Assembly: GCA_965247815.1 (NCBI GenBank)
Contig: CBDFHW010000025.1
Span: 89,058-153,057, forward strand
DNA length: 64,000 nt
Direction: 5' to 3'
Source of the DNA: Tepidisphaeraceae bacterium
Lineage (GTDB): Bacteria > Planctomycetota > Phycisphaerae > Tepidisphaerales > Tepidisphaeraceae
This document shows positions 4,690 through 62,739 of this stretch, in pieces. Each line of letters starts with the position of its first letter. Positions within the stretch are counted from its first letter, which is position 1. A program made the translations under genes and the position numbers. The notes under the pieces were generated by a model. That model was not told where the DNA came from. It did not search any database and worked only from the letters and a program-made list of their open reading frames with translations.

Positions 4690-5217
4690 TCAGATGCCCA
4701 GATCCACGGTCGTAAACAGGCTTTCAAACACGTACCCGGCGGCTTCGATGTTCTGCCGCGCGCCTTCGAGCCGGTCGATCGTGCCGACGATCTTTTTTAC
4801 CTTCAACCCCGCGGCCTCGATCGTCTTTGCCGCTTCCACCACCTGCCCGCCGGTGGTCATGATGTCTTCAATAATGACCACGGTCTCGCCAGGATTGAAG
4901 ATGCCTTCGATCTGCTTGTTCGACCCGTAGTCCTTCTTCTGGTTCCGGATAAAGATCGCCGGCTTGCCCGACGCCATCGCCGTCGCCGCCGCCAGCGGCA
5001 CCGCGCCGAGCTCCGGCCCGGCAATTCGGTCCACGTCCGCGGTGATGTGTGCCGCGAACATCCTCCCGAGCTCCAGCAAGATGTCCGGCTGGGTCTCGAA
5101 CCGGTACTTGTCCAGATAGTAATTACTCTTCCGCCCGCTGCGGAGCGTGAACTCCCCACGCAGCAACGCAACCTCGCCAATCCGTTTCGCTAGTTGTTCC
5201 CGCGTCATCGTTCCCAT
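4690..5217 (-). CDS. pyrE: Orotate phosphoribosyltransferase
   Basis: PRPP-binding motif VVIIEDIMTTGGQ. Full-length similarity to PyrE (175 aa). Confidence 0.9.
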   Translation of the reverse strand: MGTMTREQLAKRIGEVALLRGEFTLRSGRKSNYYLDKYRFETQPDILLELGRMFAAHITADVDRIAGPELGAVPLAAATAMASGKPAIFIRNQKKDYGSNKQIEGIFNPGETVVIIEDIMTTGGQVVEAAKTIEAAGLKVKKIVGTIDRLEGARQNIEAAGYVFESLFTTVDLGI

Positions 5218-5699
5218 GCCCCGTAAATATCACGGCATCGGCATCAGGGTCAAACCATCTCAGGGCCGCTCGACTTGTTGGCACCGCTGGTCGTTGTTTT
5301 GAGTCCGATGAAGTTACCGGAAAATCAGCAATACCGGCCTTCTCGCTAGGTGAAATACCGGTACATTGCAGGATCAAACCCGCCATAATCTAACATAACC
5401 TAACATATTTTTGATCTTTTTATCATTACATTGCTTAAAACTGGCAAGTGGCGTTCGTTCGAGACGGCGGTCGATGTCACGCGCAATTCGCCGCCTGAAT
5501 TACAGAAGCCGTCCCGCCGCCAAAACCCAGCGAGTCTCGGTTGACGAACCAACGGGTGCCGAGATCGTACGCCAGCTCCGCGAACCCGAATCGCGGCAGC
5601 ACCGCCGCCGCCGTGCCGGTCAGGCTGGCTACGTTTCTGTAGCCGCGCGGACGATAATTTGCGCGCGACCCAGATCACTATCCCTTACGCCCAAATAGC

Positions 5700-5879
5700 T
5701 CAAGGGGCGTGCAAACCTCTCTCACCCGTATGCCCCAGCTCCGAGGGATGCAACCATTTCCCGTGCGCCGTCGCACTCAACCGTAGGAACTGCTTGACCC
5801 ACAGTGAATAACATTCCATGGTCGATTCCGCCATGCCCCGCTGCTTCGCCACGACGCTGAGTTTTCCAAGCAATCGCAT
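5700..5879 (-). pseudogene. Remnant of tyrosine recombinase (integron-integrase / phage-integrase N-terminal SAM-like domain), 60 aa then stop
   Basis: Minus-strand ATG at 5879 encodes MRLLGKLSVVAKQRGMAESTMECYSLWVKQFLRLSATAHGKWLHPSELGHTGE... This resembles the IntI/Xer N-terminus (EQAYVHWVRAFIRFHG.RHP..LG..EVE). No catalytic domain follows. Confidence 0.4.
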
Positions 5880-6014
5880 GAACCAAACAAATACCAAACT
5901 TTGCTGCGGTGCGTCAACAATATAATATTTCGTTGACAGGCGTCTCAGCAGAGGGCAATCTGGCATTTGCCGATGCGACGCTATGTTGCACCGTCGGTTA
6001 ATTAATCGATAGTT

Positions 6015-6347
6015 ATGTGCCTCCGCCAACTGCCGATCGAAGCATTTGGACCGTTGTGTGACGCCACCTTGCAATCGGTCGCGTGGGTCGACAGCGGTGC
6101 CGACGTGCCGCCGCCGCTTATGGTCACGTTGAAGCTCTGCGGCGGCAACGTCCTTGCATACACCTTCACGTGGGTATCGCACCTTCGCATTTCTCTCGCC
6201 CAGAAGGAACGCGGGTTTTGTCAGCCGTTCAGTTGGGAGTGCAGCGCCCGCCGGCTGGAGGACGGACGCGTTGACGTCCTGTTCGACTTCGCCGGTAACG
6301 GGGCGATCACATTCCAGTGCCAGGACATCTGCGTACCCGGCACATAA
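6015..6347 (+). CDS. Orphan Cys-rich small protein (110 aa)
   Basis: ATG at 6015 in a lower-GC islet. No homology recognised. Could be island cargo. Confidence 0.25.
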   Translation: MCLRQLPIEAFGPLCDATLQSVAWVDSGADVPPPLMVTLKLCGGNVLAYTFTWVSHLRISLAQKERGFCQPFSWECSARRLEDGRVDVLFDFAGNGAITFQCQDICVPGT

Positions 6348-6454
6348 CCCGCCATGCTGTGGACGGCCCCGCGTCGCGTCGAACGTTTGTCCTTGGTATA
6401 GTGTCCCTTGGCGCGTCGCGTTGGCCGCCACAGATTGTCATCCGTTATCCCGCC

Positions 6455-6865
6455 ATGGCAGCGGCTTTGTATAAATTTCGTCTGGGCGACTACCAATCGA
6501 TCACCCTCACATGCGACTCGTACGTCGGCGGCCTCCGGTGCCGAGCGCGTGGGCGGCTCGGGCGGGTCAGTTGGGCGACGGAGACTCAAGTGGCCGCCTC
6601 CGAAATCGAAGCTTTCGCAACGGCTGTCGAGGCGGTGGTTGCCACACTCGTGGGTACCGCGGTGCTCGACCTTCACGGAGACAACCGGATTTGGATCAGC
6701 GTTTCTGTTAATACGTACGGGAGCGTTCGAACGGACTACGAAGTCTCCGGCAACTCCGGCGGGCTGAGCCGAACGGGTTGGCACGCCGGCGGCGCATACG
6801 ACTGCTGGCATCTCCACTACTTGAAACAGTTCCCGTTCCGCAGTTCGGCGGCGGGATTCGAATAA
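6455..6865 (+). CDS. Orphan hypothetical protein (136 aa)
   Basis: ATG at 6455 (MAAALYKF...) in the islet. No recognisable domain. Confidence 0.25.
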   Translation: MAAALYKFRLGDYQSITLTCDSYVGGLRCRARGRLGRVSWATETQVAASEIEAFATAVEAVVATLVGTAVLDLHGDNRIWISVSVNTYGSVRTDYEVSGNSGGLSRTGWHAGGAYDCWHLHYLKQFPFRSSAAGFE

Positions 6866-6953
6866 GGGGGCATCACTCGAACTGGTCGTTAGATTCTAAG
6901 GCTTTGTTCCTGCGGGCTCGCTTTTCGATTTGGAATTCGGGCGTTTTGATCCT

Positions 6954-7079
6954 GTCGGCTGGCGTTTCAACTTCAAATACCGGCATTTCAAACCTCTCGG
7001 CTGGCATTTCAACTTCGAATACTGGCATTCCGATCGGGTCGGCTGGCATTTTGACTTTAAATGCTGGCGTTTCTCCACC
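6954..7079. repeat. 42-bp tandem repeat x3 (each with an internal 21-bp half-repeat)
   Basis: Units at 6954-6995, 6996-7037 and 7038-7079 (gtcggctggcRtttcaacttcRaatacYggcatt...). Spanned by three overlapping ORFs in different frames. Confidence 0.85.
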
Positions 7080-7425
7080 GCTTTCTTCGTTCATTCGGGG
7101 AACTACTCTTTTAAAGCGGGTTGTATCTGACCCATAAAGAATAAGAAGGGGCCATTCCTAATTTTATTATCTGTCTAGGCCTCGTACGACTGACGTACTC
7201 TTAGCGAAGATCAACGAACGCCGGTTCATAGGAATGCCCGGCTTAAGGACTGCGTTGAACGAGTGCTGTTGACCGCCGCCCAATGCTGCCGAATGACTCA
7301 CTATGATTGATGATCATCGTCTCCGATTCATTCGGATTATCGAAAAGAACCCGGGACGAGTCGACTGCTCTGCTGACGACGGACCTGACTCTGAGATTGA
7401 TGATTAATACGCGGCGCTATTTTTA

Positions 7426-8556
7426 ATGGTAACAGTCAGTCAGCGAATCTCGCTTCGCGGCAGATTGTCATGGCACGCTTGCTTGTCCGGTTCTTACGCT
7501 GCGATTATTCTATTACTCGTGGCCAAACCCTTGAAAATCGGATCGGTGCAGTTGCGGAACAACCTGCTTCTTGCGCCCATTGCCGGGTATTGCGATCTGG
7601 CGTTTCGGCTGGTCGCGCGGGCGTGCGGCGACGTCGGGCTGGCCTGCACGGAACTGCTCTGCCCGCACGGGGTGCTCCGCGAGAATCGCAAGTCGATGGA
7701 ACTGGCCATGACCTGCGAGGCGGACGCTCCGCTGTGCATGCAGCTGTACGGCGGGAATGTCGAACTGCTTTGCGAGGCGGCGCGGTGGGCCGAGGACCGC
7801 GGGGCTCATGTCATCGACATCAACATGGGTTGCCCGGTCGATAAGGTGACCAAGCTGGACGGCGGCAGCAAGCTGCTCTGCAACCCCGATCATACGTTGA
7901 AAATGGTCGAGCGGATCGCGGGGGTGCTGCGCAATGTTCCGCTGACGGCCAAGCTGCGATTGGGCTGGGACGACACGTGTCTGGTGGCCCCGTATCTCGC
8001 GGCCCGGCTCGAAGAGACTGGCGTCAAGCTGGTCACTATTCACGGTCGAACCACCGCGATGAAATTCACTGGTCAGGCCCGGCTCGACGGCATCGCCGAA
8101 GTCGCCGCTGCGGTGAAGAACATCCCGGTCATCGGAAACGGCGACATCCGCACGCCGCAGGACGCGAAACACATGATCGGCACGACCGGCGTTGCCGGCG
8201 TGATGATCGGCCGGGGAGCGTTGTCCACGCCGTGGATCTTCCGCGACACCTGGAGCTACCTCACGACAGGAACCATCCCGCCGCCGCCGACGGTCGAAGA
8301 GATCTGCGACCTGATGCGAATGCATTTTATGGGGATGGTGCAATATCGCTGCGAACGGGCGGCCGTGTGCGAGTTCCGCAAGCGGATCAGCTGGTATGCC
8401 AAAAATCTGAACCCCTGTTCGCACCTGAAGGCCGAGATGCGGACGATCGAATGCGTCGCTGATTTCGAGGCCGCGATCGGCCGGTTCCTCGAGTTCCGTC
8501 GAACCCGGGCCGGAACACCGGTCGAAGAATCCGTCGCCGAGTTGGTCCTCGCCTAG
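7426..8556 (+). CDS. tRNA-dihydrouridine synthase (Dus family, DusB-like)
   Basis: Dus signature (LLLAPIAGYCDLAFR ... DINMGCPV ... KLRLGWDD). The true start is possibly the GTG at 7519, because the region upstream of it is AT-rich. Confidence 0.85.
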   Translation: MVTVSQRISLRGRLSWHACLSGSYAAIILLLVAKPLKIGSVQLRNNLLLAPIAGYCDLAFRLVARACGDVGLACTELLCPHGVLRENRKSMELAMTCEADAPLCMQLYGGNVELLCEAARWAEDRGAHVIDINMGCPVDKVTKLDGGSKLLCNPDHTLKMVERIAGVLRNVPLTAKLRLGWDDTCLVAPYLAARLEETGVKLVTIHGRTTAMKFTGQARLDGIAEVAAAVKNIPVIGNGDIRTPQDAKHMIGTTGVAGVMIGRGALSTPWIFRDTWSYLTTGTIPPPPTVEEICDLMRMHFMGMVQYRCERAAVCEFRKRISWYAKNLNPCSHLKAEMRTIECVADFEAAIGRFLEFRRTRAGTPVEESVAELVLA

Positions 8557-53589: not shown

Positions 53590-56500
53590 TCAATGAAAAT
53601 CGCGCGACCCCACACCGCCGTCCGAAATCAGATGGCTCAGGTCCGTCATCCGCATCACCATCACGTGAACGACCTTGTCCTGTCGTTCGACGTACCCCTC
53701 GGCCTGCACGAGCGTCGAATGTCTCGCGGCCTTTCGGTACCGATCGAACACCACCGGGCGGATGATCAGGTTCGCGATCCCCGATTCGTCTTCCAACGTC
53801 TCGAACACGATGCCGGACGCCGTCCCGGGCCGCTGACGGATCAGCACCAGCCCGGCGACACGGACCCATTTGCCGTGGGTCATGGTTGATAAATCCGCCG
53901 CCGGTGTGACGCGCATCTGCTTTAACTGCTGGCGGATCAACGCGACCGGGTGCCGCTTCAGCGACAGCCCCGCCGTGCGGTAATCGATCGTGACCTCCTG
54001 TGACATCGGCATCGTCGGCAGCGATACCCCGACCTCGGGCGCGGTGTCCTCGGTCAACCAGTCGAACAAAGGCATCGGTTCGCTGTGACATTTCATCACG
54101 TCCCACAACGCCTGCCTGCGGGACAACCCGAGCGAGCCGAAACCGTCGGCCTCGGCCAACGTCCGCAGCGCGTGTGGTGGCAAACCCGTCCGTCGGGCGA
54201 ACTGGTCGACGGACGTAAACGGGCCTCGTGTTCTAACTTCGATAACGCGGTCGGCGTGCGCCCGCCGTAGCCCCCGCACGCGGTTGAAACCGAGCTGCAC
54301 GACCGGCCCGCCGTGCCCCCAGTCCCAGGTGCGGCCGAAATCCGCGACGATCTCCGAATCACCGTGTGAATCATTTTCCGAAGATTCGGCTGTGACCAAA
54401 TCATTCTCGTCCAGTTCATAGCTGTGACCCCGAACACCAAGTGCATGCAGCGTGCATTCCCAACTGCTCTGATTCACGTCGACCGCCAGCACGATCACGC
54501 CGTGCGCCTGCGCGTCGCGGACGATCTGCGCCGGCGCGTAGAACCCCATCGGCTGGCTGTTCAGCAAACCGCAGCAGAAGACCGCCGGGTGGTGCCGTTT
54601 GATCCAGCAGGAGACATAAACCAGCAGCGCGAAACTGGCGGAATGACTTTCGGGGAAGCCGTATTCGCCGAACCCTTTGAGCATGTTGAAACATTGGTCC
54701 GCATATTCCGGCGTGTACCGCTTGGCGAGCATGCCGGCCAGGATCTTCTTGCGGAATTCCTCGACCGCGCCCCCGCGCTTCCACGCCGCCATCGCGCGCC
54801 GGAACCGGTCCGCCTCGTCCCCGGAAAACCCCGCCCCCTTCATCGCGATCTGCATCGCCTGTTCCTGAAACAACGGCACGCCCAGCGTCCGCTTCAGCAC
54901 CTCTTCCAGTTCCGCGCTCGGGTACACGACCGGTTCCAGCCCCCGCCGGCGGCGCAAATACGGGTGCACCATGTCCCCCTGGATCGGGCCCGGGCGCACG
55001 ATCGCGACTTCAATTACAAGGTCGTAAAACGTCCGGGGTCGCAGCCGGGGCAGCATCGTCATCTGCGCCCGCGATTCGATCTGGAACACCCCGACCGTGT
55101 CGGCGTCACAGATCATGTCGTAAACCAACTGGTCTTCCTGCGGGATCGTGTGCATCGCCAGCGGCGGGGTGCTCGGGTAAACCTGGTTGATCATCGTCAC
55201 GCACTTGGCGATGCACGTCAGCATCCCCAGCGCGAGCAGGTCGACTTTGAGAATTTTTAAATCGTCGATGTCCTGCTTGTCCCATTCGATGACGGTGCGG
55301 TCGGCCATCACGGCGTTTTCCACCGGCACCATCTCGCACAGCAGCCCGCTGGTCATGACCATCCCGCCGACGTGTTGACCCAGGTGCCGTGGGAACCCCA
55401 GCAACTGTTCGGACAAGTCGACGATCGTCCGCACCGTGCGGTCGTCGGGGTCGAGCCCGACCTCGGTCAACTTCTCCGGTGTCAGCGTGCCGCGGTCCCA
55501 CCAGTCGAGCCGCTTGGCCATCTGCTCGATCGTGTCCAGGCCGAGCCCCATCACTTTCCCCACGTCGCGCACGGCCGAGCGCCCGCGATACGTAATCACC
55601 TCGGCCGTCATCCCCGCCCGGTCCCGGCCGTATTTTTCGTACACATACTGAATCACTTCTTCGCGGCGTTCGTGCTCGAAATCGACGTCAATGTCCGGCG
55701 GTTCGTTCCGGGCCGCACTGACGAACCGTTCGAACAGGACGTTGATCTGGTCCGGGTTTACCGACGTGACGCCGATGCAATAACAGACCGCGCTATTGGC
55801 GGCCGACCCCCGGCCCTGGCACAAAATGTCGCGCGACCGCGCGAACCGGACGATGTCCTGCACGGTCAAAAAATACGCCTCGATCTGCAACTCGCCGATC
55901 AGTTTCAATTCCCGCTCGATCAGCGTTTTGACTTTCGGCGGAATTCCCTGCGGGTATCGCCCGGCCGCCCCTTCCCAGGCGAGCTCGGTCAGGTATTGCA
56001 GCTGCGTCTTCCCCGGTGAAGTCAGCTCGTGCGGGTATTCGTATTTCAGCTGGTCGAGATTGAATTGACATTGCTCGGCGATATCGAGCCCGCGCTGGAT
56101 GGCTGGCAAATAATCATCGAACAGCACGTGCATCTGCAGCGGCAATTTGAGATACCGTTCGCCATTTTGGAACAATCGGTATCCCGCCTCGTGGATCGTG
56201 CAGCCGTGCCGGACGCACGTCAGCACGTCCTGCAACCGCCGGCGGTCGGGGTGGTGAAAGTGCACGTCATTAGTCGCCAGCATCGGCACGCCGAACGCCC
56301 GGCTCAGCCAGTTAAGGTTCGACAACCGGGTCTGGTTGTCACTTTCATATACACACGACGCCGCGATCGACAACGATTTTCCGAACACGTCTTTCAACTG
56401 CCCCAGGTCCCGGGCGAACGTTTCCGGCACCGGGTCGGGCGGGACCACCGCAACGAGCAGGCCTTTGCCGTGATCGAACAGGTCGTGGATAGATAGATCG

Positions 56501-56883
56501 CATTCACCTTTGATCGTCCGCCGTTTGCCCAGCGTGAGCAGCTGGCACAGTCGCGCGTACGCCGCCCGGTCGGTCGGCCAGACCAATACATCAGGGTGAT
56601 TCGCCAGCACGAGCCGGGCGCCGACCACCAGTTTCAGCCCGACCTCTTTCGCCTTCACGTGCATGCGGACGATGCCGGCTACTGAATTGATATCGGTGAT
56701 GCCGATCGCGCGGTAACCCAGGTGGGCCGCCTGGATCACCAGTTCGTCCGGGTGCGACGCGCCACGCAGGAACGAAAAATTGGTCGTCACCGCCAGCTCG
56801 GCGTACTCGTACGGGCAGGCCCGCACCGTGATGTTCGACGGGGCCGCGGCGTCACGAAGTTTTGGATTAGGATGTTCGGGCAT
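53590..56883 (-). CDS. dnaE2: Error-prone DNA polymerase III alpha-like, DnaE2 (ImuC)
   Basis: 1097 aa. N-terminal PHP domain (AELAVTTNFSFLRGASHPDEL) and Pol III alpha core. Located downstream of imuA-imuB. Confidence 0.9.
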   Translation of the reverse strand: MPEHPNPKLRDAAAPSNITVRACPYEYAELAVTTNFSFLRGASHPDELVIQAAHLGYRAIGITDINSVAGIVRMHVKAKEVGLKLVVGARLVLANHPDVLVWPTDRAAYARLCQLLTLGKRRTIKGECDLSIHDLFDHGKGLLVAVVPPDPVPETFARDLGQLKDVFGKSLSIAASCVYESDNQTRLSNLNWLSRAFGVPMLATNDVHFHHPDRRRLQDVLTCVRHGCTIHEAGYRLFQNGERYLKLPLQMHVLFDDYLPAIQRGLDIAEQCQFNLDQLKYEYPHELTSPGKTQLQYLTELAWEGAAGRYPQGIPPKVKTLIERELKLIGELQIEAYFLTVQDIVRFARSRDILCQGRGSAANSAVCYCIGVTSVNPDQINVLFERFVSAARNEPPDIDVDFEHERREEVIQYVYEKYGRDRAGMTAEVITYRGRSAVRDVGKVMGLGLDTIEQMAKRLDWWDRGTLTPEKLTEVGLDPDDRTVRTIVDLSEQLLGFPRHLGQHVGGMVMTSGLLCEMVPVENAVMADRTVIEWDKQDIDDLKILKVDLLALGMLTCIAKCVTMINQVYPSTPPLAMHTIPQEDQLVYDMICDADTVGVFQIESRAQMTMLPRLRPRTFYDLVIEVAIVRPGPIQGDMVHPYLRRRRGLEPVVYPSAELEEVLKRTLGVPLFQEQAMQIAMKGAGFSGDEADRFRRAMAAWKRGGAVEEFRKKILAGMLAKRYTPEYADQCFNMLKGFGEYGFPESHSASFALLVYVSCWIKRHHPAVFCCGLLNSQPMGFYAPAQIVRDAQAHGVIVLAVDVNQSSWECTLHALGVRGHSYELDENDLVTAESSENDSHGDSEIVADFGRTWDWGHGGPVVQLGFNRVRGLRRAHADRVIEVRTRGPFTSVDQFARRTGLPPHALRTLAEADGFGSLGLSRRQALWDVMKCHSEPMPLFDWLTEDTAPEVGVSLPTMPMSQEVTIDYRTAGLSLKRHPVALIRQQLKQMRVTPAADLSTMTHGKWVRVAGLVLIRQRPGTASGIVFETLEDESGIANLIIRPVVFDRYRKAARHSTLVQAEGYVERQDKVVHVMVMRMTDLSHLISDGGVGSRDFH

Positions 56884-56934
56884 AGCGCACGGGTCGGTGT
56901 CTCACGGTGTGACGATGTCACGGTGTCGCGCGGG

Positions 56935-58635
56935 TCAACATTTTCCGTGCAGGTACCACTTCCGCGTCTCGTCCACCTGGAACAGCCAGAACCGCTGCCC
57001 CGACTGGTCTTCGACGTCGAAATAGTCCCGCGTTTTATTCCGGCCCTCCCACCACGACCCGGTGATCCGTTCCGGCCCGTTGCGGTGAACCAGGTTGAAC
57101 GCCTCGCCGGCGTGGGTGAACGAAATCGGCAGGTCTTCGCCCAGTTCGTTGGACATCATCGCGCACCCGATTTCGATCGGCTCGGGCAACAGGTGCAGCG
57201 GCCGCGATTTGATCTCCCTGTGGGTTGATTCGACCGGCGTCGGGGGGACCAATTTGAATGCCGGGTTGGACACCGGCAATAGCGAGCTGGTTTGCGCCGT
57301 CGCCTGCCGTGGTTTTTTCTTCTGTACTGCCGGCCGTTTGTGCGTCGCGAAGCTGACCGCCTTTTCCGGCAGATGCGATTCCACCGGGGTCGGGAACGCC
57401 ACCGCCGCTTCCCCGAGCCGCACCCGAAGCCGTTCGATCAGGTAATCGATTTCCCCCTCGGCCAGCTGCGCTTCGCGGTCCAGCAGGTGCAGTTGCTCGA
57501 GCGTCAGCCGTTCGAACACCGGCACCGAAAGCCGAAGACCGGCAAACCCGTCGTTGCCGCATTTCACCGTCTCGGTCGCACACCGCAGCAGGTTCCAAAG
57601 GCCCGTCAGGTCGACGGTGGGGCGCGACAGCTGAATCGTTTTCGTCACCGGCGGCAGACCATTCAGAAGAAACTCGGCCACCAGCGTCCGGGCCCCGCAC
57701 CCCCGCTGATGAAGCTCGTGCAGAACGTCTTTCAGCAGATGTTTGCACGCCTGCCAGAGATCGGTCAGCGAATCGACACCCCCTTCGAATTCCATCCCGG
57801 CAACGACCGGTTGAAAATGCGCGATCGGCAACAACGGTTCGGGCGTCCGCCCCAGCGCCTGGTCCAATCGTTTCAACACCGTCGTGCCGAACCGCGCGGG
57901 CAGCGTTTCGCGGGGCAATCGCACCAGTTGCCCGATGGTTTCAATGCCCAGTGAATGAAAAGTCCGCACGAGATCGTTACCCAACCGCAGAAAAGAAACC
58001 GGCAACGGCGCGAGCGCGGCGGGAAGCTGATCAAGATCGAAAATACGCGCGCCCCGAGATCCCGAAGAACTCTCCGAGCGATGTTGCGCCCGGCTCTTTC
58101 CCGGATCAGAAGGTCGTGACGCCAGCGCCCACGCCGCACCGGGCGTCGGCGCGATCGCGATGCCGTGACGCAGTTTCAACCGGCTGAGCGATTCGGTCGC
58201 CAGCCCCAGCAACCGGTCCATGCCCGAAAAAAGCCGTTCGCTGCCGGTCACGTCCAGGAACAAAGCATCCGGCGGTTCGACCGCAACCACCGGGCTGAAT
58301 CGCACCATCCACCGCGCCAACGCCTGCAGCGCCTGCAGATCTTTATCGGGCCGATGATCCAGATGCGCGAGCCCCGTACACAACGCCCGAGCCTCGGCCA
58401 GCGACATGCCCGGGACCACCCCCGCGGCCGTCGCGTTCGCACAAGCAAACGTCACCAATTGCCGCGCCGCCACCGTCCGAATCAACACCAAGGACGGACC
58501 CGATATCGAACCAACAGACCCCGAGGTCTTCAGACTTCTTTCGGATTTCGGATTTCGGATTTCGGATTTACAACTAGCCTGTCGCTGTTTTCGGTTGACC
58601 CGGTCGATGGGCCATTGGTTCAACCGCACGCACAT
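56935..58635 (-). CDS. imuB: ImuB, Y-family polymerase-like mutasome component
   Basis: ImuB-type N-terminus (MCVRLNQWPIDRV ... VPGMSLAEARALC). Sits between imuA and dnaE2. The start overlaps the imuA 3' end. Confidence 0.75.
   Translation of the reverse strand: MCVRLNQWPIDRVNRKQRQASCKSEIRNPKSERSLKTSGSVGSISGPSLVLIRTVAARQLVTFACANATAAGVVPGMSLAEARALCTGLAHLDHRPDKDLQALQALARWMVRFSPVVAVEPPDALFLDVTGSERLFSGMDRLLGLATESLSRLKLRHGIAIAPTPGAAWALASRPSDPGKSRAQHRSESSSGSRGARIFDLDQLPAALAPLPVSFLRLGNDLVRTFHSLGIETIGQLVRLPRETLPARFGTTVLKRLDQALGRTPEPLLPIAHFQPVVAGMEFEGGVDSLTDLWQACKHLLKDVLHELHQRGCGARTLVAEFLLNGLPPVTKTIQLSRPTVDLTGLWNLLRCATETVKCGNDGFAGLRLSVPVFERLTLEQLHLLDREAQLAEGEIDYLIERLRVRLGEAAVAFPTPVESHLPEKAVSFATHKRPAVQKKKPRQATAQTSSLLPVSNPAFKLVPPTPVESTHREIKSRPLHLLPEPIEIGCAMMSNELGEDLPISFTHAGEAFNLVHRNGPERITGSWWEGRNKTRDYFDVEDQSGQRFWLFQVDETRKWYLHGKC
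58541..58568. repeat. Heptanucleotide microsatellite (TCGGATT)x4 in the imuA/imuB junction
   Basis: Four perfect tandem copies at 58541-58568, 5 nt from the imuA stop (58574-58576) and inside the 5' coding region of imuB (encodes KSEIRNPKSE). Confidence 0.9.
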
Positions 58636-59314
58636 GATTTGTCTCACGGCAGACCTCCAGAAGAACGTTTTTCCCCACACGTCCTCCGTGACCGTGAATC
58701 AATTCCACCGACACCCGCTGGAGCATCCGCTCCCCGCGGGCCGGGGTTACTTTCCATCGCGTGGCGGCGGCGTAGGGCCACGCGACGGCCTCCGCCGGGC
58801 GCAGCAACACACCGATCCCGCCCCCGCGCTCGGCCGCCAACTGCAACCGCCTCGCCTGCACCCGCGTCAACCGGCCCGCCGGGGTAATGCACGCGGCCAC
58901 GCCCCGGCACCGAAGACACTCGGTCACCGCCCAGAGCCCTTCCGCCATCGTCGCCGGCCGCAACACCAGCAGGCGTTCCATCGGGATGCCCAGCGCCAAT
59001 AACGCCGGCGGATACAGGTCCCGGTCGAAATCGCACCAGACGATCATGCCAACCCGCGACTCCGACTGAATCGCCGATCGCGCCAGCAAGGCAGGCAACA
59101 AGAACGGCATCCGCGCCGCCTGCGATTTCACACCGCCTACGCCGTTGAGCACCTCGTGCACGGCCCCGCGGACGAACGCCCCCTCGGGCAACATCTCGTC
59201 CAAAGCCGACAACCCGGTAACCAGCTTCCGCGACCCGCCACCCGCGCGACCGGGCAAATGCCCGAGCCCGGGCAGCGTCCGCAACAACCCACCGACAGAC
59301 GTAATGACATGCAC
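58574..59314 (-). CDS. imuA: ImuA (SulA/RecA-like) mutasome component
   Basis: RecA-fold-like P-loop region. First gene of the imuA-imuB-dnaE2 cassette. GTG start at 59314. Confidence 0.7.
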   Translation of the reverse strand: MHVITSVGGLLRTLPGLGHLPGRAGGGSRKLVTGLSALDEMLPEGAFVRGAVHEVLNGVGGVKSQAARMPFLLPALLARSAIQSESRVGMIVWCDFDRDLYPPALLALGIPMERLLVLRPATMAEGLWAVTECLRCRGVAACITPAGRLTRVQARRLQLAAERGGGIGVLLRPAEAVAWPYAAATRWKVTPARGERMLQRVSVELIHGHGGRVGKNVLLEVCRETNHVRAVEPMAHRPGQPKTATG

Positions 59315-59683
59315 GCACCTTCCCTTGTTTGTACTTTGTTAGGGTACCTGACAAGGCCGCGTCCGGTCAATCCTGTTTTAATTTGGCGACAGGAAGGGAC
59401 GTCCTGACTTTAATGGACCCGTTGGCGGGATAACGATCTATTGGAACCTCTGCACTGCGGCCGAGGTGAAAAATTGTACTCGACCCCAAAACCCACGCGG
59501 TTGCTAAACACACCCACAAAAGGTTGTGGTTTTATGAATTGGGTTATTATCAGCGAATTAGTTACTGGGAGGGAGCGGATAAAGGGTCGAGCGGATAAAG
59601 GGTCGGGAGTCGTTGATTAGACTCCCGACCCTTTAGAATTTCCCGGCGAAGATCAGTCGCGGTCCTCTACCAAAGGAGATTGC

Positions 59684-60768
59684 ATGAGCTATCAGACAAT
59701 TGTGGCTATCGATCTGGGCAAGTTCAAGTCTGTTTTGTGCGTGATGGACGTCGCCACCCGGACGCATCGGTTTACCACCATCGAGTCTTCGCCGACCGCG
59801 ATCCGCGATGCGATTGCTCAGCAGGTCTCGACCGATCCGGCTTTGACCCTGGTGGTCTTTGAGACCTGCGACACCTGCGGCTGGGTGCATGATCAACTCG
59901 CGCCCCTGGGCGTGAAGATCACCATCGTCAACGCCAACGATGAACGCTGGCGCTGGCAGCGGGTGAAGCGAAAGACCGATCAGGATGATGCACTGAAAAT
60001 GGCCAGGCTGGCGCTATTGGATCAATTGCCCACGGTACATCTGCCCGATCCACAGCAGCGGCAGAGACGGCGGTTGATGATTCACCGGCGATCAATCGTG
60101 AGCCGGCGAACGCAGTGCCGCAACGCCATTCGCTCCATTTTCAGCCATCCTTCGACTTCGCTCAGGAGGGTATCGCGCTGGCCAGAGGACAAAAGCAGTG
60201 GACACGCGCCGGCCTAGAGCAACTGCAAAGCCATGCCGCCCCGATCGAGAACTGCGACGTGGACGATCTGTGGAAGGGAAGGCTCAACAGCGAACTGCTG
60301 CTGATGGCGTCGATCAACCAGCAGCTCAAAGCGCTCGATGCCAAGCTGGACGAACTGGCCGACCCGCGCATGAAACTATTGCAGAGCCTGAAGGGCGTTG
60401 GCCCGCGCACCGCAGAGACAGTGGTGCTGTACATCGATGATCCCAAACGATTCAAAACCGGCGAAGAACTGGCCAGCTACGCCGGTCTGGTGCCCAAGCA
60501 ACTGCAAAGCGGTGAAATGAACCGCATGGGCCACATCACCCATCGCGGGCCGGGTCTCTTGCGTGCGATGCTGGTCGAGTCGGCCTGGACAATCTATCGC
60601 CACAACCCCTGGGCACAGGCGTTTGTGAACAAGATCAGCCACGGATCAAAGGCCAGGCGAAAGCTGGCGATCGTCGCGCTGGCCAAAAAGGTGCTGATCA
60701 TTTTGTGGGGCATGCTCAAGAGCAATACGCCGTTCCGACAACCGTCGTCTGTCGCGCTGGTGAGTTGA
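59684..60768 (+). mobile_element. IS110-family transposase gene, disrupted by a frameshift (frames 59684..60217 and 60115..60768)
   Basis: N-terminal DEDD/RuvC-like part (IVAIDLGKFKS ... VFETCDTCGW) in one frame. C-terminal part (GVGPRTAETVVLYIDDPKRF ... YAGLVPKQLQSGE) in another. The shift is near a TTTT run around 60140-60150. Confidence 0.8.
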
Positions 60769-61600: not shown

Positions 61601-61882
61601 ATGGCACGAAGAAAGTACACGCGGGAGTTCAAGATTTCAGCAGTCAAGCTGGTCAATCAACAGGGGTATTCAGTGGTTGACGCGGCCAAGAGCCTGGGCG
61701 TCGATCCCAACAGCGTTCGGGGGTGGGTCGGCAAGTTTGGAGCCGAGGCCGGCTTGGCGCCGACTGGCGACGGAGCGATGGCGGCAGAGCTGCGGCGGCT
61801 GCGCAAGGAGAACGCCCGGCTTTTGATGGAGCGCGAGATTTTAAAAAAAGCAGCTCAGTTCTTCGCAAAGGAGCAGCTGTGA
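61601..61882 (+). CDS. IS3 OrfA (helix-turn-helix transposase N-terminal part)
   Basis: MARRKYTREFKISAVKLV... ending at the AAAAAAAG slippery run (61844-61851), where a -1 frameshift would fuse it to orfB. Confidence 0.85.
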   Translation: MARRKYTREFKISAVKLVNQQGYSVVDAAKSLGVDPNSVRGWVGKFGAEAGLAPTGDGAMAAELRRLRKENARLLMEREILKKAAQFFAKEQL

Positions 61883-62739
61883 AGTTTGCCTTCATCGAAG
61901 AACACCTCCGTGACTTTCCGGTTGAGGTTTCGTGCCAGGTGCTGGATGTCAGCCGCTCGGGTTACTACGACTGGATCAACCGGCCTGCGAGCGAGCGGTA
62001 CAAACGCCGGGAGGAACTGACGGCCAAGGTCAGAACCGCCGCCGTGGAAGGGCGCGGCGTCTACGGCAGCCCGCGGATCTATAAAGCCCTGGTGGCCCGG
62101 GGCGAAAGCGTGTGTGAAAACACGGTGGCAAAAGTGATGAAAGCGGCCGGAATCCGGGCGAAACAAAAGAAAAAATTCGTGCCGACCACCACCGACAGCG
62201 ACCACCCCAACCCGGTGGCCGGCAACGTGCTGGACCGGCAGTTCGCCGCCGAACTCCCGAACCAGAAATGGGCGGTGGACATCACTTACATTCCGACCGA
62301 CCAGGGATGGATGTACCTGGCGGGGGTGATTGATTTGTGCAGCCGGATGATCGTCGGCTGGTCGATGGCGGATCACATGCAAACCGATCTGGTGAGTGAT
62401 GCGCTGCAGATGGCGATCGCGCGAAGAAGCCCCGAGAAAGGCCTGCTGCACCACAGCGACCGCGGCGTTCAATACGCGAGTGATAATTACCAGCAGCTGC
62501 TGGAATCGCATGAAATGAACCAGAGCATGAGCGGCAAGGGAGACTGCTGGGACAACGCCGTAATGGAAAGCTTCTGGTCCACGCTCAAGACCGAGTTGGT
62601 GCATCACCAGAAGTTCGCCACACATGACCAGGCCCGGGCGTCGATCTTTGAGTACATCGAGGTGTTTTATAATCGCAGACGTCTGCACAGTTCGTTAGGC
62701 TATGTCAGCCCCGAGATGTTCGAGGCAAGCCTGAATTAG
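61879..62739 (+). CDS. IS3 OrfB (DDE integrase-core / rve domain)
   Basis: -1 frame relative to orfA. DDE motifs (WAVDITYI ... HHSDRGVQY ... ESFWSTLKTE). The frame is open from 61723. Confidence 0.85.
   Translation: MKFAFIEEHLRDFPVEVSCQVLDVSRSGYYDWINRPASERYKRREELTAKVRTAAVEGRGVYGSPRIYKALVARGESVCENTVAKVMKAAGIRAKQKKKFVPTTTDSDHPNPVAGNVLDRQFAAELPNQKWAVDITYIPTDQGWMYLAGVIDLCSRMIVGWSMADHMQTDLVSDALQMAIARRSPEKGLLHHSDRGVQYASDNYQQLLESHEMNQSMSGKGDCWDNAVMESFWSTLKTELVHHQKFATHDQARASIFEYIEVFYNRRRLHSSLGYVSPEMFEASLN

What the first reader, a model, noticed from the sequence alone, without database searches (positions are those of the whole stretch)
5700..7420. Lower-GC islet opening with a tyrosine-recombinase N-terminal remnant: possible degraded integron-like or integrative element
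On the minus strand, 5879..5700 encodes 60 aa with the integron-integrase / phage-integrase SAM-like N-terminus (YSLWVKQFLRL...HGKWLHPSELGHTGE) and then stops, with no catalytic domain. Directly upstream is an AT-rich region with a perfect palindrome GTCAAC-N14-GTTGAC (5913-5937) that embeds TTGACA and TATAAT hexamers in opposing orientations. Beyond it lie roughly 1.5 kb of lower-GC DNA with orphan ORFs (6015..6347, 6455..6865), a 42-bp tandem repeat and further AT-rich sequence before the Dus gene. The layout of recombinase, promoter-like site and short cassette-like ORFs in the opposite orientation is integron-like, but I could not identify attC sites.
Basis: partly seen in the sequence, partly recalled or inferred. 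Interest (0 to 1): 0.55.

Follow-up and report, generated by a model that had tools for sequence, protein, structure and literature searches.

The report
Decayed chromosomal integron, two cassettes
This stretch is the worn-down remains of a chromosomal integron (a bacterial gene-capture platform) in a planctomycete-type genome: the recombinase gene is broken, but the insertion site, one recombination hairpin and two captured genes survive, which makes it an ordinary example of a known kind of element.

Summary
The 59-aa ORF (5879..5700, minus) is the true N-terminus of an integron integrase. It is 90% identical to residues 1-49 of an intact IntI in metagenome contig L032 (TIGR02249 344 bits, cutoff 265). 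A 272-nt internal deletion, a 13-nt insertion and loss of the C-terminal half killed the gene. Upstream lie a promoter and palindrome block and an attI site, both conserved across integron platforms of related Phycisphaerae (Tepidisphaeraceae/Phycisphaerales) MAGs. Similarity stops exactly at GTTAT (G6012|TT). Cassette 1 (6013-6444) holds ORF1 and a 107-nt attC (6342-6450). That attC belongs to a family of at least 74 copies forming same-strand arrays next to intact intI genes, with strong covariation. Cassette 2 (6445-6857) holds ORF2. In contig L030 the same gene is the first cassette and has a full attC; here the attC was lost at a breakpoint inside R''. The ORFs have host-like GC; only the non-coding parts are AT-rich. 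Region 6858-7518, with its 21/42-bp repeats, remains unexplained. The locus is a new member of a known kind and of modest interest.

The parts
5531..5879 (-). intI pseudogene (relic of an integron integrase). Residues 1-49 lie at 5879-5733, ending in the 59-aa ORF that stops at 5700. Residues 141-149 lie at 5734-5708 in another frame. Residues 150-167 lie at 5694-5641 in a third frame. Weak colinear traces follow at 5642-5583 and 5560-5531. The C-terminal catalytic half is absent.
   Evidence: tblastn with the intact IntI of L032: residues 1-49 at 90% identity, E=3.5e-24; residues 150-167 at 83%, E=0.002 against the whole window; residues 141-149 at 78%. DNA: window 5733-6017 matches L032 1021-737 (83%), and window 5642-5735 matches L032 1374-1294 (79%, with 13 extra nt). 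This implies a 272-nt deletion of codons 50-140.
5880..5912 (-). Candidate Pint -10 and very short leader of intI. On the minus strand: TTGACG (5917-5912), 18 nt, TATTTG (5893-5888), 8 nt, ATG. Includes the conserved block GTTTGGTAnnTGTTTGG.
   Evidence: Block conserved in 6 platforms of the same sub-lineage while the neighbouring 12 nt vary. The promoter assignment is inference only; the generic promoter scan is not above chance.
5913..5937 (.). Palindrome GTCAAC-N13-GTTGAC. Either back-to-back -35 boxes of divergent promoters or an operator.
   Evidence: Present as GTCAAY-N13/14-KTTGAC(A), 30-33 nt from the intI ATG, in 9 platforms (window, L001, L002, L003, L007, L011, L016, L018, L023), and also in L032, L034 and L036 (L033 has ATCAAG in the left arm). 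Unique in the window.
5933..5961 (+). Candidate cassette promoter Pc: TTGACA (5933-5938), 17 nt, CAATCT (5956-5961).
   Evidence: Both hexamers and the 17-nt spacing are kept in the sub-lineage while the spacer sequence varies. Function not tested.
5979..6016 (+). attI site: GCTATGTTGC...CGGTTAAT...TAGTTAT. Crossover between G6012 and T6013.
   Evidence: Similarity to L001, L032 and all other platforms ends at TAGTTAT. Platforms with near-identical intI (L007/L011, L002/L023) diverge completely right after GTTA(T).
6013..6444 (+). Cassette 1 (432 nt): ORF1 6015-6347 (110 aa) plus its attC.
6342..6450 (+). attC site. R'' is ACATAAC (6342-6348, containing the ORF1 stop TAA at 6345-6347). R' is GTTATCC (6444-6450). 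Imperfect hairpin with an unpaired central spacer, two extrahelical bases and a variable centre.
   Evidence: Covariance model R1 gives 125.5 bits, E=2.6e-40, and this is the only significant hit in 64 kb. The family alignment of 74 copies is 95.8% paired, with 13 of 26 pairs showing compensatory changes and 0 of 500 shuffles reaching the observed value. It is 95% identical to the attC of L032.
6445..6857 (+). Cassette 2, truncated: ORF2 6455-6865 (136 aa). Its attC was removed at a breakpoint inside R'' (GGGAT|AAC).
   Evidence: Homologues P0126 (81%), P0127 (69%) and P0128 (68%). In L030 the homologue is the first cassette after attI and is followed by a full attC (122.8 bits). In L031 it is followed by an attC cut by the contig end. 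The window/L030 alignment starts at GTTATCCCGCCATGG and ends at GGCGGCGGGAT. dN/dS is 0.13-0.24.
6858..7518 (.). Unassigned AT-rich non-coding DNA (49% GC) between cassette 2 and dus. Includes YGGCRTTTCAA repeated every 21 nt (6939-7075; TRF period 42).
   Evidence: No coding signature (GC3 0.48-0.58). No homologue in any fetched locus. No Rfam match. Repeats shown. Homology with the closest dus relative begins at 7502.

Best explanation
The locus is a decayed sedentary chromosomal integron of a family specific to Phycisphaerae (Tepidisphaeraceae/Phycisphaerales; Planctomycetota).

Ancestral working state (established integron mechanism, inferred here): IntI, transcribed leftward, recombined the folded bottom strand of a cassette's attC hairpin with double-stranded attI at G|TT. 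This placed promoterless cassettes downstream of a rightward promoter, Pc.

Order of capture: the ORF2 cassette came first. The ORF1 cassette was inserted later at attI, because new cassettes enter at attI.

Decay of intI: a 272-nt frameshifting internal deletion, a 13-nt insertion and loss of the C-terminal catalytic half destroyed the gene. The platform can no longer recombine by itself.

Decay of the array: a rearrangement with one end inside R'' removed the attC of cassette 2, and whatever lay beyond it. That fixed ORF2 in place.

What remains: a frozen two-gene operon, probably still transcribed from Pc. ORF1 encodes an all-beta protein with the fold of a polymorphic-toxin immunity protein. 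ORF2 encodes a conserved protein of unknown function. Cassette 1 keeps an intact attI and attC pair, so an IntI encoded elsewhere in the genome could in principle still excise it.

Shown: orthology of the stub and its relics, the attI and attC boundaries, the attC structure and covariation, cassette mobility between contexts, and purifying selection on ORF2.

Inferred: promoter assignments, expression, order of events and mobilisability in trans.
For: intI:
- The stub aligns from the initiator Met with intact IntI proteins. It is 45% identical to L011 IntI and 90% identical to L032 IntI.
- L011/L007 and L032/L035 IntI pass the TIGR02249 cutoff of 265 bits, scoring 373/370 and 344/336 over the full-length profile.
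- DNA alignment to L032 shows the deletion junction and a second relic, box I 'LGVRDSDLGRAQIIVRAA'.

attC:
- The exact 19-mer from the conserved block hit 23 genome loci. 21 of them are in Tepidisphaeraceae, Phycisphaerales, Phycisphaerae or Tepidisphaerales MAGs, often with several hits per genome.
- The covariance model finds 74 copies in same-strand arrays of 5-10, spaced 300-900 bp.
- In 32 of 33 inter-repeat intervals the longest ORF lies on the attC strand and fills the interval.
- The arrays are divergent from intact intI in L007 and L011.
- The hairpin has R''/R' (ATAAC/GTTAT), an unpaired spacer of 4 versus 6 nt, two invariant bulged bases 7 nt apart on the R''-L'' arm, and a variable centre.
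- 13 of 26 pairs show compensatory changes, with 0 of 500 shuffles reaching the observed value; slid controls are far lower.
- These are the features listed for attC sites in PMC2727003.

attI:
- Similarity among platforms ends at TAGTTAT.

Cassettes:
- ORF1 is replaced by an unrelated ORF in L001 between conserved flanks.
- The ORF2 cassette occupies position 1 in L030, with identical 5' boundary TTATCCCGCCATGG and its own attC.

Literature:
- Integrons are already documented in Planctomycetes (PMC4889954, PMC8352920).
Against: - Only one attC is present in the window, so the standard definitions are not literally met (complete integron = intI plus attC; CALIN = at least 2 attC).
- IntegronFinder's generic attC model could not be run. 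The attC call rests on a model built here from the same family.
- The first extrahelical base is C on the bottom strand rather than the canonical G.
- The promoter hexamers are weak (CAATCT as -10), and the generic promoter scan is at chance level.
- Nothing is known about expression, or about an intact intI elsewhere in this genome.
- The 660 bp after cassette 2 are unexplained.
Confidence: 0.92

Rival explanations
1. The array is still an active satellite. Although its own intI is dead, an intact IntI elsewhere in the same genome uses this attI and attC, so cassette 1 is still exchanged. This refines the best explanation rather than replacing it.
For: attI, the promoter block and attC are well preserved (83% and 95% identity to L032, which has an intact intI). 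Related genomes carry intact and decayed platforms plus integrase-less arrays side by side. For example, OY969903.1 has L011 (intact) together with L003, L012, L013, L019 and L020. Trans use of integrase-less arrays is discussed in PMC4889954.
Against: No other integrase is present in the 64-kb window, and the rest of the genome is not available. The window attC has a 1-nt deletion in the L'' box.
Confidence: 0.3
2. The 59-aa N-terminal stub is kept as a functional mini-protein, for example a SAM-like DNA-binding domain that regulates or occupies attI or attC. It would then be more than a decaying pseudogene.
For: Short ORFs of 59-133 aa that keep the first 45-90 residues recur in several lineages: window, L001 (P0002), P0001 and L036/L037. 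dN/dS of the first 45-49 codons is 0.08-0.22 between the window and its relatives.
Against: The truncation points and downstream sequences differ in every lineage. Intact full-length members of the same lineage exist (L032, L033, L035), so the low dN/dS is explained by a long functional history followed by recent independent decay. dN/dS of window against intact copies (0.08-0.14) is higher than intact against intact (0.02-0.05). Frame-shifted relics of the catalytic domain follow the stub.
Confidence: 0.04
3. The stub is a remnant of a prophage or integrative-conjugative element integrase, and the region is a degraded integrative island.
For: Tyrosine-recombinase SAM-like N-termini are shared by phage integrases and Xer proteins (Pfam PF13495). 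IS elements occur elsewhere in the window.
Against: The best family match is TIGR02249, integron integrase. The stub is orthologous to proteins that pass the integron-integrase cutoff. There is no tRNA or att duplication. No phage or conjugation genes are present. The ORFs have host-like GC3.
Confidence: 0.01
4. The 114-nt repeat is a REP- or MITE-type intergenic palindrome unrelated to integron recombination, and its position next to the stub is coincidental.
For: It is a highly conserved palindromic repeat found many times per genome.
Against: The copies show strict same-strand polarity in arrays. One ORF fills each interval in 32 of 33 cases. The arrays are divergent from intact intI. Terminal AAC/GTT boxes are shared with the attI boundary. 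The same cassette is found behind attI in one genome and behind an attC in another.
Confidence: 0.02

Closest known systems
Sedentary chromosomal integrons, such as the Vibrio cholerae superintegron with its VCR attC repeats
   Same: Chromosomal location. intI is divergent from an array of short promoterless ORFs. The attC sites are highly homogeneous within a lineage (here about 90% identical across several MAG species). The attC hairpin has R boxes, an unpaired spacer, extrahelical bases and a variable terminal structure.
   Different: In this window the array is reduced to two cassettes and the integrase is dead. The first extrahelical base is C rather than G on the bottom strand. The host is a member of Phycisphaerae (Planctomycetota), and the LexA box typical of Vibrio integrons is absent.
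Chromosomal integrons with inactivated intI, such as Xanthomonas (own knowledge of Gillings et al. 2005), and the intI pseudogenes found next to integrase-less arrays in PMC4889954
   Same: Decay of intI by deletion or frameshift while cassettes and attC sites persist. Decay is frequent and independent among relatives (window, L001, L002, L003, L016, L018, L023, L030, L036/37).
   Different: Different phylum and attC family. No conserved chromosomal anchor gene was found; the flanks pyrE and dus are not syntenic in relatives.
IntegronFinder categories: complete integron, In0 and CALIN (PMC4889954)
   Same: The locus contains the same building blocks.
   Different: It fits none of the categories strictly. 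There is no intact intI (so it is neither complete nor In0) and only one attC (a CALIN needs at least 2). Default pipelines would probably report nothing here.
Planctomycetes integrons and the taxon-specific attC model (PMC4889954; PMC8352920)
   Same: Same phylum. The literature already reports integrons and a Planctomycetes-specific attC covariance model.
   Different: I could not test whether that published model covers this Tepidisphaeraceae attC family. No paper in the library links integrons with Phycisphaerae specifically.

Membership tests
Integron (platform plus cassettes) | An intI gene encoding an integron-type tyrosine recombinase (TIGR02249 / IntI-specific domain) | tested here: not met
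   Only a pseudogene remains. It keeps residues 1-49, 141-167 and faint traces; the catalytic C-terminal half is absent. Its intact orthologues pass TIGR02249 (344 and 336 bits against a cutoff of 265), so ancestry is shown and present function is excluded.
Integron (platform plus cassettes) | An attI site next to intI with a GTT crossover, where cassette sequence begins | tested here: met
   Similarity among at least 10 platforms ends at TAGTTAT (window G6012|TT). Near-identical platforms carry different DNA immediately after it. Recombination itself was not assayed.
Integron (platform plus cassettes) | attC sites with an R'' (RYYYAAC) and R' (GTTRRRY) imperfect palindrome, unpaired central spacer, extrahelical bases on the R''-L'' arm, variable terminal structure and length of 57-142 nt | tested here: met
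   Window 6342-6450 scores 125.5 bits with model R1. R''/R' match the consensus at 6 of 7 positions each. The spacer is 4 versus 6 nt. Two bulged bases lie 7 nt apart on the R''-L'' arm in 72 of 74 copies. 13 of 26 pairs covary, and the criteria come from PMC2727003. Deviation: the first extrahelical base is C, not G, on the bottom strand. IntegronFinder's own model was not run.
Integron (platform plus cassettes) | Cassettes are discrete mobile units (one ORF plus attC) found in different arrays or positions | tested here: met
   The ORF2 cassette is second in the window, first in L030 with identical 5' boundary, and is also followed by attC in L031. The position after attI is occupied by an unrelated ORF in L001. 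32 of 33 array intervals hold one same-strand ORF.
Integron (platform plus cassettes) | A promoter Pc that drives the promoterless cassettes | tested here: inconclusive
   TTGACA-N17-CAATCT is conserved with a variable spacer in the sub-lineage. The -10 is weak and the generic scan is at chance level. No transcription data are available.
CALIN (cluster of attC sites lacking an integrase) | [quoted passage not shown] | tested here: not met
   There is only one significant attC in the 64 kb, searched with filters off.
Prophage or ICE integrase remnant | A phage- or ICE-type integrase with att duplication (often at a tRNA) and element genes | tested here: not met
   There is no tRNA in the window. 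The orthologues are integron integrases. The cargo is two small host-like ORFs.
Polymorphic-toxin immunity proteins (ORF1 cargo) | Fold and sequence family of a known immunity protein, plus a cognate toxin | tested here: inconclusive

The most novel reading that the evidence does not exclude
The palindrome TGTCAAY-N13/14-RTTGACA sits at a fixed 30-33 nt from the intI start in at least 9 integron platforms of this clade. It may be the operator of a still-unknown regulator that co-controls integrase and cassette transcription, and not merely two back-to-back -35 boxes. The regulator could be the non-canonical planctomycete LexA or another stress sensor. In this sub-lineage the AT-rich spacer is also conserved and nearly symmetric: GTCAACAAAATA-A-TATTTTGTTGAC in L032. 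Separately, this attC family uses C instead of G as the first bottom-strand extrahelical base. That could indicate a variant strand-selection rule.
Probability: 0.2. Interest if true: 0.45.

Novelty: new member of a known kind. Interest (0 to 1): 0.25.

Why it matters
The locus shows how a chromosomal integron decays:
- the integrase gene is deleted piecemeal;
- one cassette is locked in place by loss of its attC at a breakpoint inside R'';
- attI, the promoter block and one attC remain almost intact.

Default integron finders would probably miss it, because it has no intact intI and only one attC.

The side product may be more useful than the locus itself. It is a well-defined attC family, with its IntI lineage, for Tepidisphaeraceae/Phycisphaerales. 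The arrays are tight, there are many loci per genome, and integrase decay is frequent. This could serve to annotate cassettes in soil and peat Planctomycetota.

For a specialist nothing here is surprising. Integrons in Planctomycetes and decayed intI genes are already documented.

Tried and rejected
(1) Synteny of the pyrE-dus interval. The closest Dus relatives (92%, 84% and 80% identity; L025, L026-28, L029) have unrelated upstream genes. DNA homology with L025 starts only at window 7502. No empty-site comparison is possible, and no related integron locus carries pyrE or dus.

(2) I first took a tblastn hit of an extended ORF2 to L005 as a cassette homologue. It was driven by translation of the attC. 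The ORFs themselves are not significantly similar (E=0.023), so I withdrew the claim.

(3) I looked for a second attC after ORF2, or anywhere else in the window. None was found with the filter-free covariance-model search. The 16-nt similarity at 7456-7471 (D13) is at chance level.

(4) Other copies of the stub or of the 5200-7450 region in the window: none.

(5) Rfam families in 5100-7700: none. tRNAs: none.

(6) The palindrome as an SOS box. It is not present upstream of the imuA-imuB-dnaE2 operon in the window, which has a different palindrome.

(7) The 73-aa repeat ORF (6873-7094, minus) and the plus-strand repeat ORFs. They have no coding signature (GC3 0.48-0.58) and no Pfam, NCBIfam or PADLOC hits.

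(8) The ORF2 structure model is too poor to use (pLDDT 52). The afdb50 fold library was unavailable.

(9) P0001 (the 74-aa stub from a 637,748-bp NCBI contig) and the window's own contig could not be retrieved by exact look-up.
Full report
OBSERVATION

The minus strand from 5879 to 5700 encodes MRLLGKLSVVAKQRGMAESTMECYSLWVKQFLRLSATAHGKWLHPSELGHTGERGLHAP followed by a stop. That is 59 residues, not 60.

Taken alone, the match to recombinases is weak:
- Pfam Phage_int_SAM_4: E=6.4e-5, 23.7 bits, below the gathering score of 27.
- TIGR02249 integron integrase: positions 3-45 of 315, E=1.3e-3.

The palindrome is GTCAAC-N13-GTTGAC at 5913-5937, so the spacer is 13 nt and not 14. TTGACA lies at 5933-5938 and TATAAT at 5921-5926. 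The 42-bp tandem repeat is real: 6951-7073, 2.9 copies.

The 'lower-GC islet' is only partly real. The two ORFs are 61-62% GC with GC3 of 0.71-0.77, like pyrE and dus (GC3 0.81-0.82). Only the non-coding stretches are AT-rich: 5880-6012 at 46% and 6866-7518 at 49%.

FIRST LEAD

A search of 5.8 billion proteins found only two relatives of the stub. Both are short: P0001 (74 aa) and P0002 (59 aa). Each is truncated at a different point.

The contig of P0002 (L001) aligns with the window in two blocks:
- the stub plus the whole upstream intergenic region, up to AGTTATG;
- a block of about 115 nt running from CATAAC to CCGTTAT.

The ORF between these two blocks is completely different in the two sequences. 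Conserved platform, variable gene, conserved imperfect palindrome with AAC/GTT ends: this is the signature of an integron cassette.

THE REPEAT FAMILY IS AN attC FAMILY

I scanned one genome per species for an exact 19-mer from the 3' end of the block. It hit 23 loci. All but two chance hits were MAGs labelled Tepidisphaeraceae, Phycisphaerales, Phycisphaerae, Tepidisphaerales or (for one) Planctomycetota. Several genomes had more than one locus.

The copies have sharp boundaries, (G)CATAAC...GTTAT(G), and unrelated flanks. I built a covariance model from 25 copies. It finds 74 copies in these loci, in same-strand arrays of 5-10 spaced 300-900 bp. In 32 of 33 inter-repeat intervals the longest ORF lies on the repeat's strand and fills the interval.

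The consensus hairpin has these parts:
- an R box (ATAAC/GTTAT);
- an unpaired spacer of 4 versus 6 nt;
- an L box;
- two bulged bases (G and A on the top strand, each in 72 of 74 copies), 7 nt apart and both on the R''-L'' arm;
- a variable centre.

Across the 74 copies, 95.8% of cells are paired and 13 of 26 pairs carry compensatory changes. None of 500 shuffles reached the observed values, and structures slid by 1-3 columns fall to 27-45% paired. One caveat applies: the alignment is fitted to the model.

These features are the ones that define attC sites (PMC2727003): R''/R' boxes, an unpaired central spacer, extrahelical bases on the R''-L'' arm, a G after AAC on the bottom strand, a variable terminal structure and a length of 57-142 nt. 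One feature differs. The first extrahelical base is C, not G, on the bottom strand. The second is the canonical T.

THE ARRAYS SIT NEXT TO REAL INTEGRON INTEGRASES

In L011 and L007 a 372-codon ORF lies divergent from the array. It matches TIGR02249 over the whole profile at 373 and 370 bits, against a cutoff of 265. Its likely start, at M42, aligns with the first residue of the window's stub.

A metagenome scan with the three stubs then recovered the stub's own lineage. L032, L033 and L035 carry intact IntI genes of about 330 codons. L032 scores 344 bits and L035 336 bits on TIGR02249. L036 and L037 are truncated.

The window's stub is 90% identical to L032 IntI residues 1-49 (E=3.5e-24). A second relic, LGVRDSDLGRAQIIVRAA at 5694-5641 in another frame, is 83% identical to residues 150-167 (E=0.002 against the whole window). 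It is preceded by GIRVREVCT at 5734-5708, matching residues 141-149.

At the DNA level:
- window 5733-6017 matches L032 1021-737 at 83%;
- window 5642-5735 matches L032 1374-1294 at 79%, with 13 extra nt.

So the gene lost 272 nt (codons 50-140, a frameshifting deletion), gained 13 nt, and lost nearly everything after codon 167. No catalytic tyrosine region is left.

THE PLATFORM

In nine loci (the window and eight related loci that carry intI or a remnant) the geometry is the same:
- intI ATG;
- 30-33 nt;
- GTCAAY-N13/14-KTTGACA;
- 74-85 nt;
- TAGTTAT.

L030 has the same TAGTTAT attI, with a longer spacer between its GTCAAT and CTTGAC arms. Similarity stops at TAGTTAT, even between platforms whose intI genes are about 97% identical (L007 and L011).

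Within the window's sub-lineage several elements are conserved:
- the block before the intI ATG;
- the palindrome;
- TTGACA-N17-CAATCT, where the spacer sequence varies;
- an attI block, GCTATGTTGC...CGGTTAAT...TAGTTAT.

I read these as Pint, Pc and attI. The promoter calls are inference only, because the generic promoter scan is at chance level.

In the window the attI crossover lies between G6012 and T6013.

THE CASSETTES

Cassette 1 runs from T6013 to G6444.
- ORF1 spans 6015-6347, and its stop codon lies inside R'' (ACATAAC, 6342-6348).
- R' is GTTATCC at 6444-6450.
- The attC scores 125.5 bits (E=2.6e-40) and is the only significant hit in the 64 kb.
- ORF1 belongs to a family of proteins of about 105 residues, with 63 representatives and no Pfam match.

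Cassette 2 starts at T6445.
- ORF2 spans 6455-6865 and has homologues at 68-81% identity.
- It is under purifying selection, with dN/dS of 0.13-0.24.
- In L030 the homologue is the first cassette, directly after an attI (…AGTAGTTATCCCGCCATGG…). It is followed by a full attC scoring 122.8 bits.
- In L031 the homologue is also followed by an attC.
- The window/L030 alignment begins exactly at GTTATCCCGCCATGG and ends at GGCGGCGGGAT, window 6857.
- In the window the attC of this cassette is therefore missing from within its R'' box (GGGAT|AAC) onwards.

No attC, and no homology of any kind, follows. The region 6858-7518 is AT-rich and non-coding. It carries YGGCRTTTCAA every 21 nt. I cannot explain this region.

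INTERPRETATION

The locus is a decayed sedentary chromosomal integron. The integrase is dead. attI and the promoter block are intact. One cassette is complete. A second cassette is fixed in place by loss of its attC.

By the established integron mechanism, ORF2 was captured first and ORF1 later at attI. Both genes are probably still expressed from Pc. A trans-acting IntI could still excise cassette 1, but whether one exists in this genome is unknown.

Decay of intI is common in this clade. It is seen in L001, L002, L003, L016, L018, L023, L030, L036 and L037. Intact and decayed platforms, together with integrase-less arrays, coexist in single genomes.

The low dN/dS of the stub (0.08-0.22) is explained by a long functional history followed by recent, independent truncations. 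Selection on a mini-protein is not needed to explain it.

COMPARISON AND NOVELTY

Integrons, In0 elements and CALINs are known in Planctomycetes, and a Planctomycetes attC model has been published (PMC4889954, PMC8352920). The library holds no paper that links integrons with Phycisphaerae specifically.

This locus fits none of the IntegronFinder categories strictly, because it has no intact intI and only one attC. Mechanistically it is still an ordinary integron relic. I class it as a new member of a known kind, of modest interest.

Three points stand out slightly:
- the unusual first extrahelical base;
- the breakpoint inside R''.

Noticed in passing
window 53590-59314 (minus strand): An imuA-imuB-dnaE2 mutagenesis cassette. 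The parts are an error-prone DNA polymerase (NF004225, 1398 bits), a Y-family-like ImuB and ImuA (NF033429). A different palindrome, CCTTGTTTGTAC-N9-GTACCTGACAAGG, lies just upstream of imuA at about 59323-59358.
   Followed up: partly
window 59550-60768; also L030 about 60-200: An IS110-family transposase gene. Only its N-terminal 149 of 343 profile positions lie in ORF 59684-60217, so it is probably frameshifted. It is preceded by direct repeats GGATAAAGGGTCG and a hairpin GGGTCGGGAGTC...GACTCCCGACCC (about 59570-59640). A very similar GGGTCGGGAGTCGTTGA...TCGACTCCCGACCC motif interrupts the decayed intI of L030.
   Followed up: no
window 61723-62739 (plus strand): An IS3-family transposase ORF (NF033516, 381 bits).
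   Followed up: no
window 7426-7518: The long dus ORF (ATG 7426, 376 aa) is probably over-extended. Homologues are 333-350 aa. Protein similarity starts at residue 29-35, and DNA similarity with the closest relative starts at 7502. GTG 7519 is the likely start.
   Followed up: partly
window 6939-7075: Five to seven copies of YGGCRTTTCAA at exactly 21-nt spacing, with two alternating spacer types (hence the 42-bp period). The array looks iteron-like. It has no coding signature on either strand and no homologue in any fetched locus.
   Followed up: partly
window 6857/6858: The rearrangement that removed the attC of cassette 2 has its breakpoint inside the R'' box (GGGAT|AAC), 2 nt from the AAC triplet. 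It may be an aberrant integrase-mediated event or a coincidence.
   Followed up: partly
L005 4695-4790 (minus strand): Two attC 3' ends (…ATTGCCATCCGTTAT and …ATTGTCATCCGTTAT) lie only about 70 nt apart. This is either a mini-cassette without an ORF or a nested or partial attC.
   Followed up: no
L009 7132-6973 and 5105-4946 (minus strand): Two attC copies share identical sequence, including about 25 nt of upstream cassette sequence. This indicates a duplicated cassette within one array.
   Followed up: no
L003, L011, L012, L013, L019, L020 (all from OY969903.1): One 4.9-Mb Phycisphaerales MAG chromosome carries at least six separate loci with this attC family. One has an intact integron (L011), one has a decayed intI (L003), and the rest are integrase-less clusters. 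Multiple integron loci per genome appear typical of the clade.
   Followed up: partly
window 6015-6347 (ORF1) and its family (P0131-P0192): A family of about 105-aa all-beta proteins with conserved D16, W24, W53, F92 and G96. It has no Pfam model. The predicted fold resembles the polymorphic-toxin immunity protein PIM7 (8owu_E) and the uncharacterised Neisseria protein 5v77_B.
   Followed up: partly
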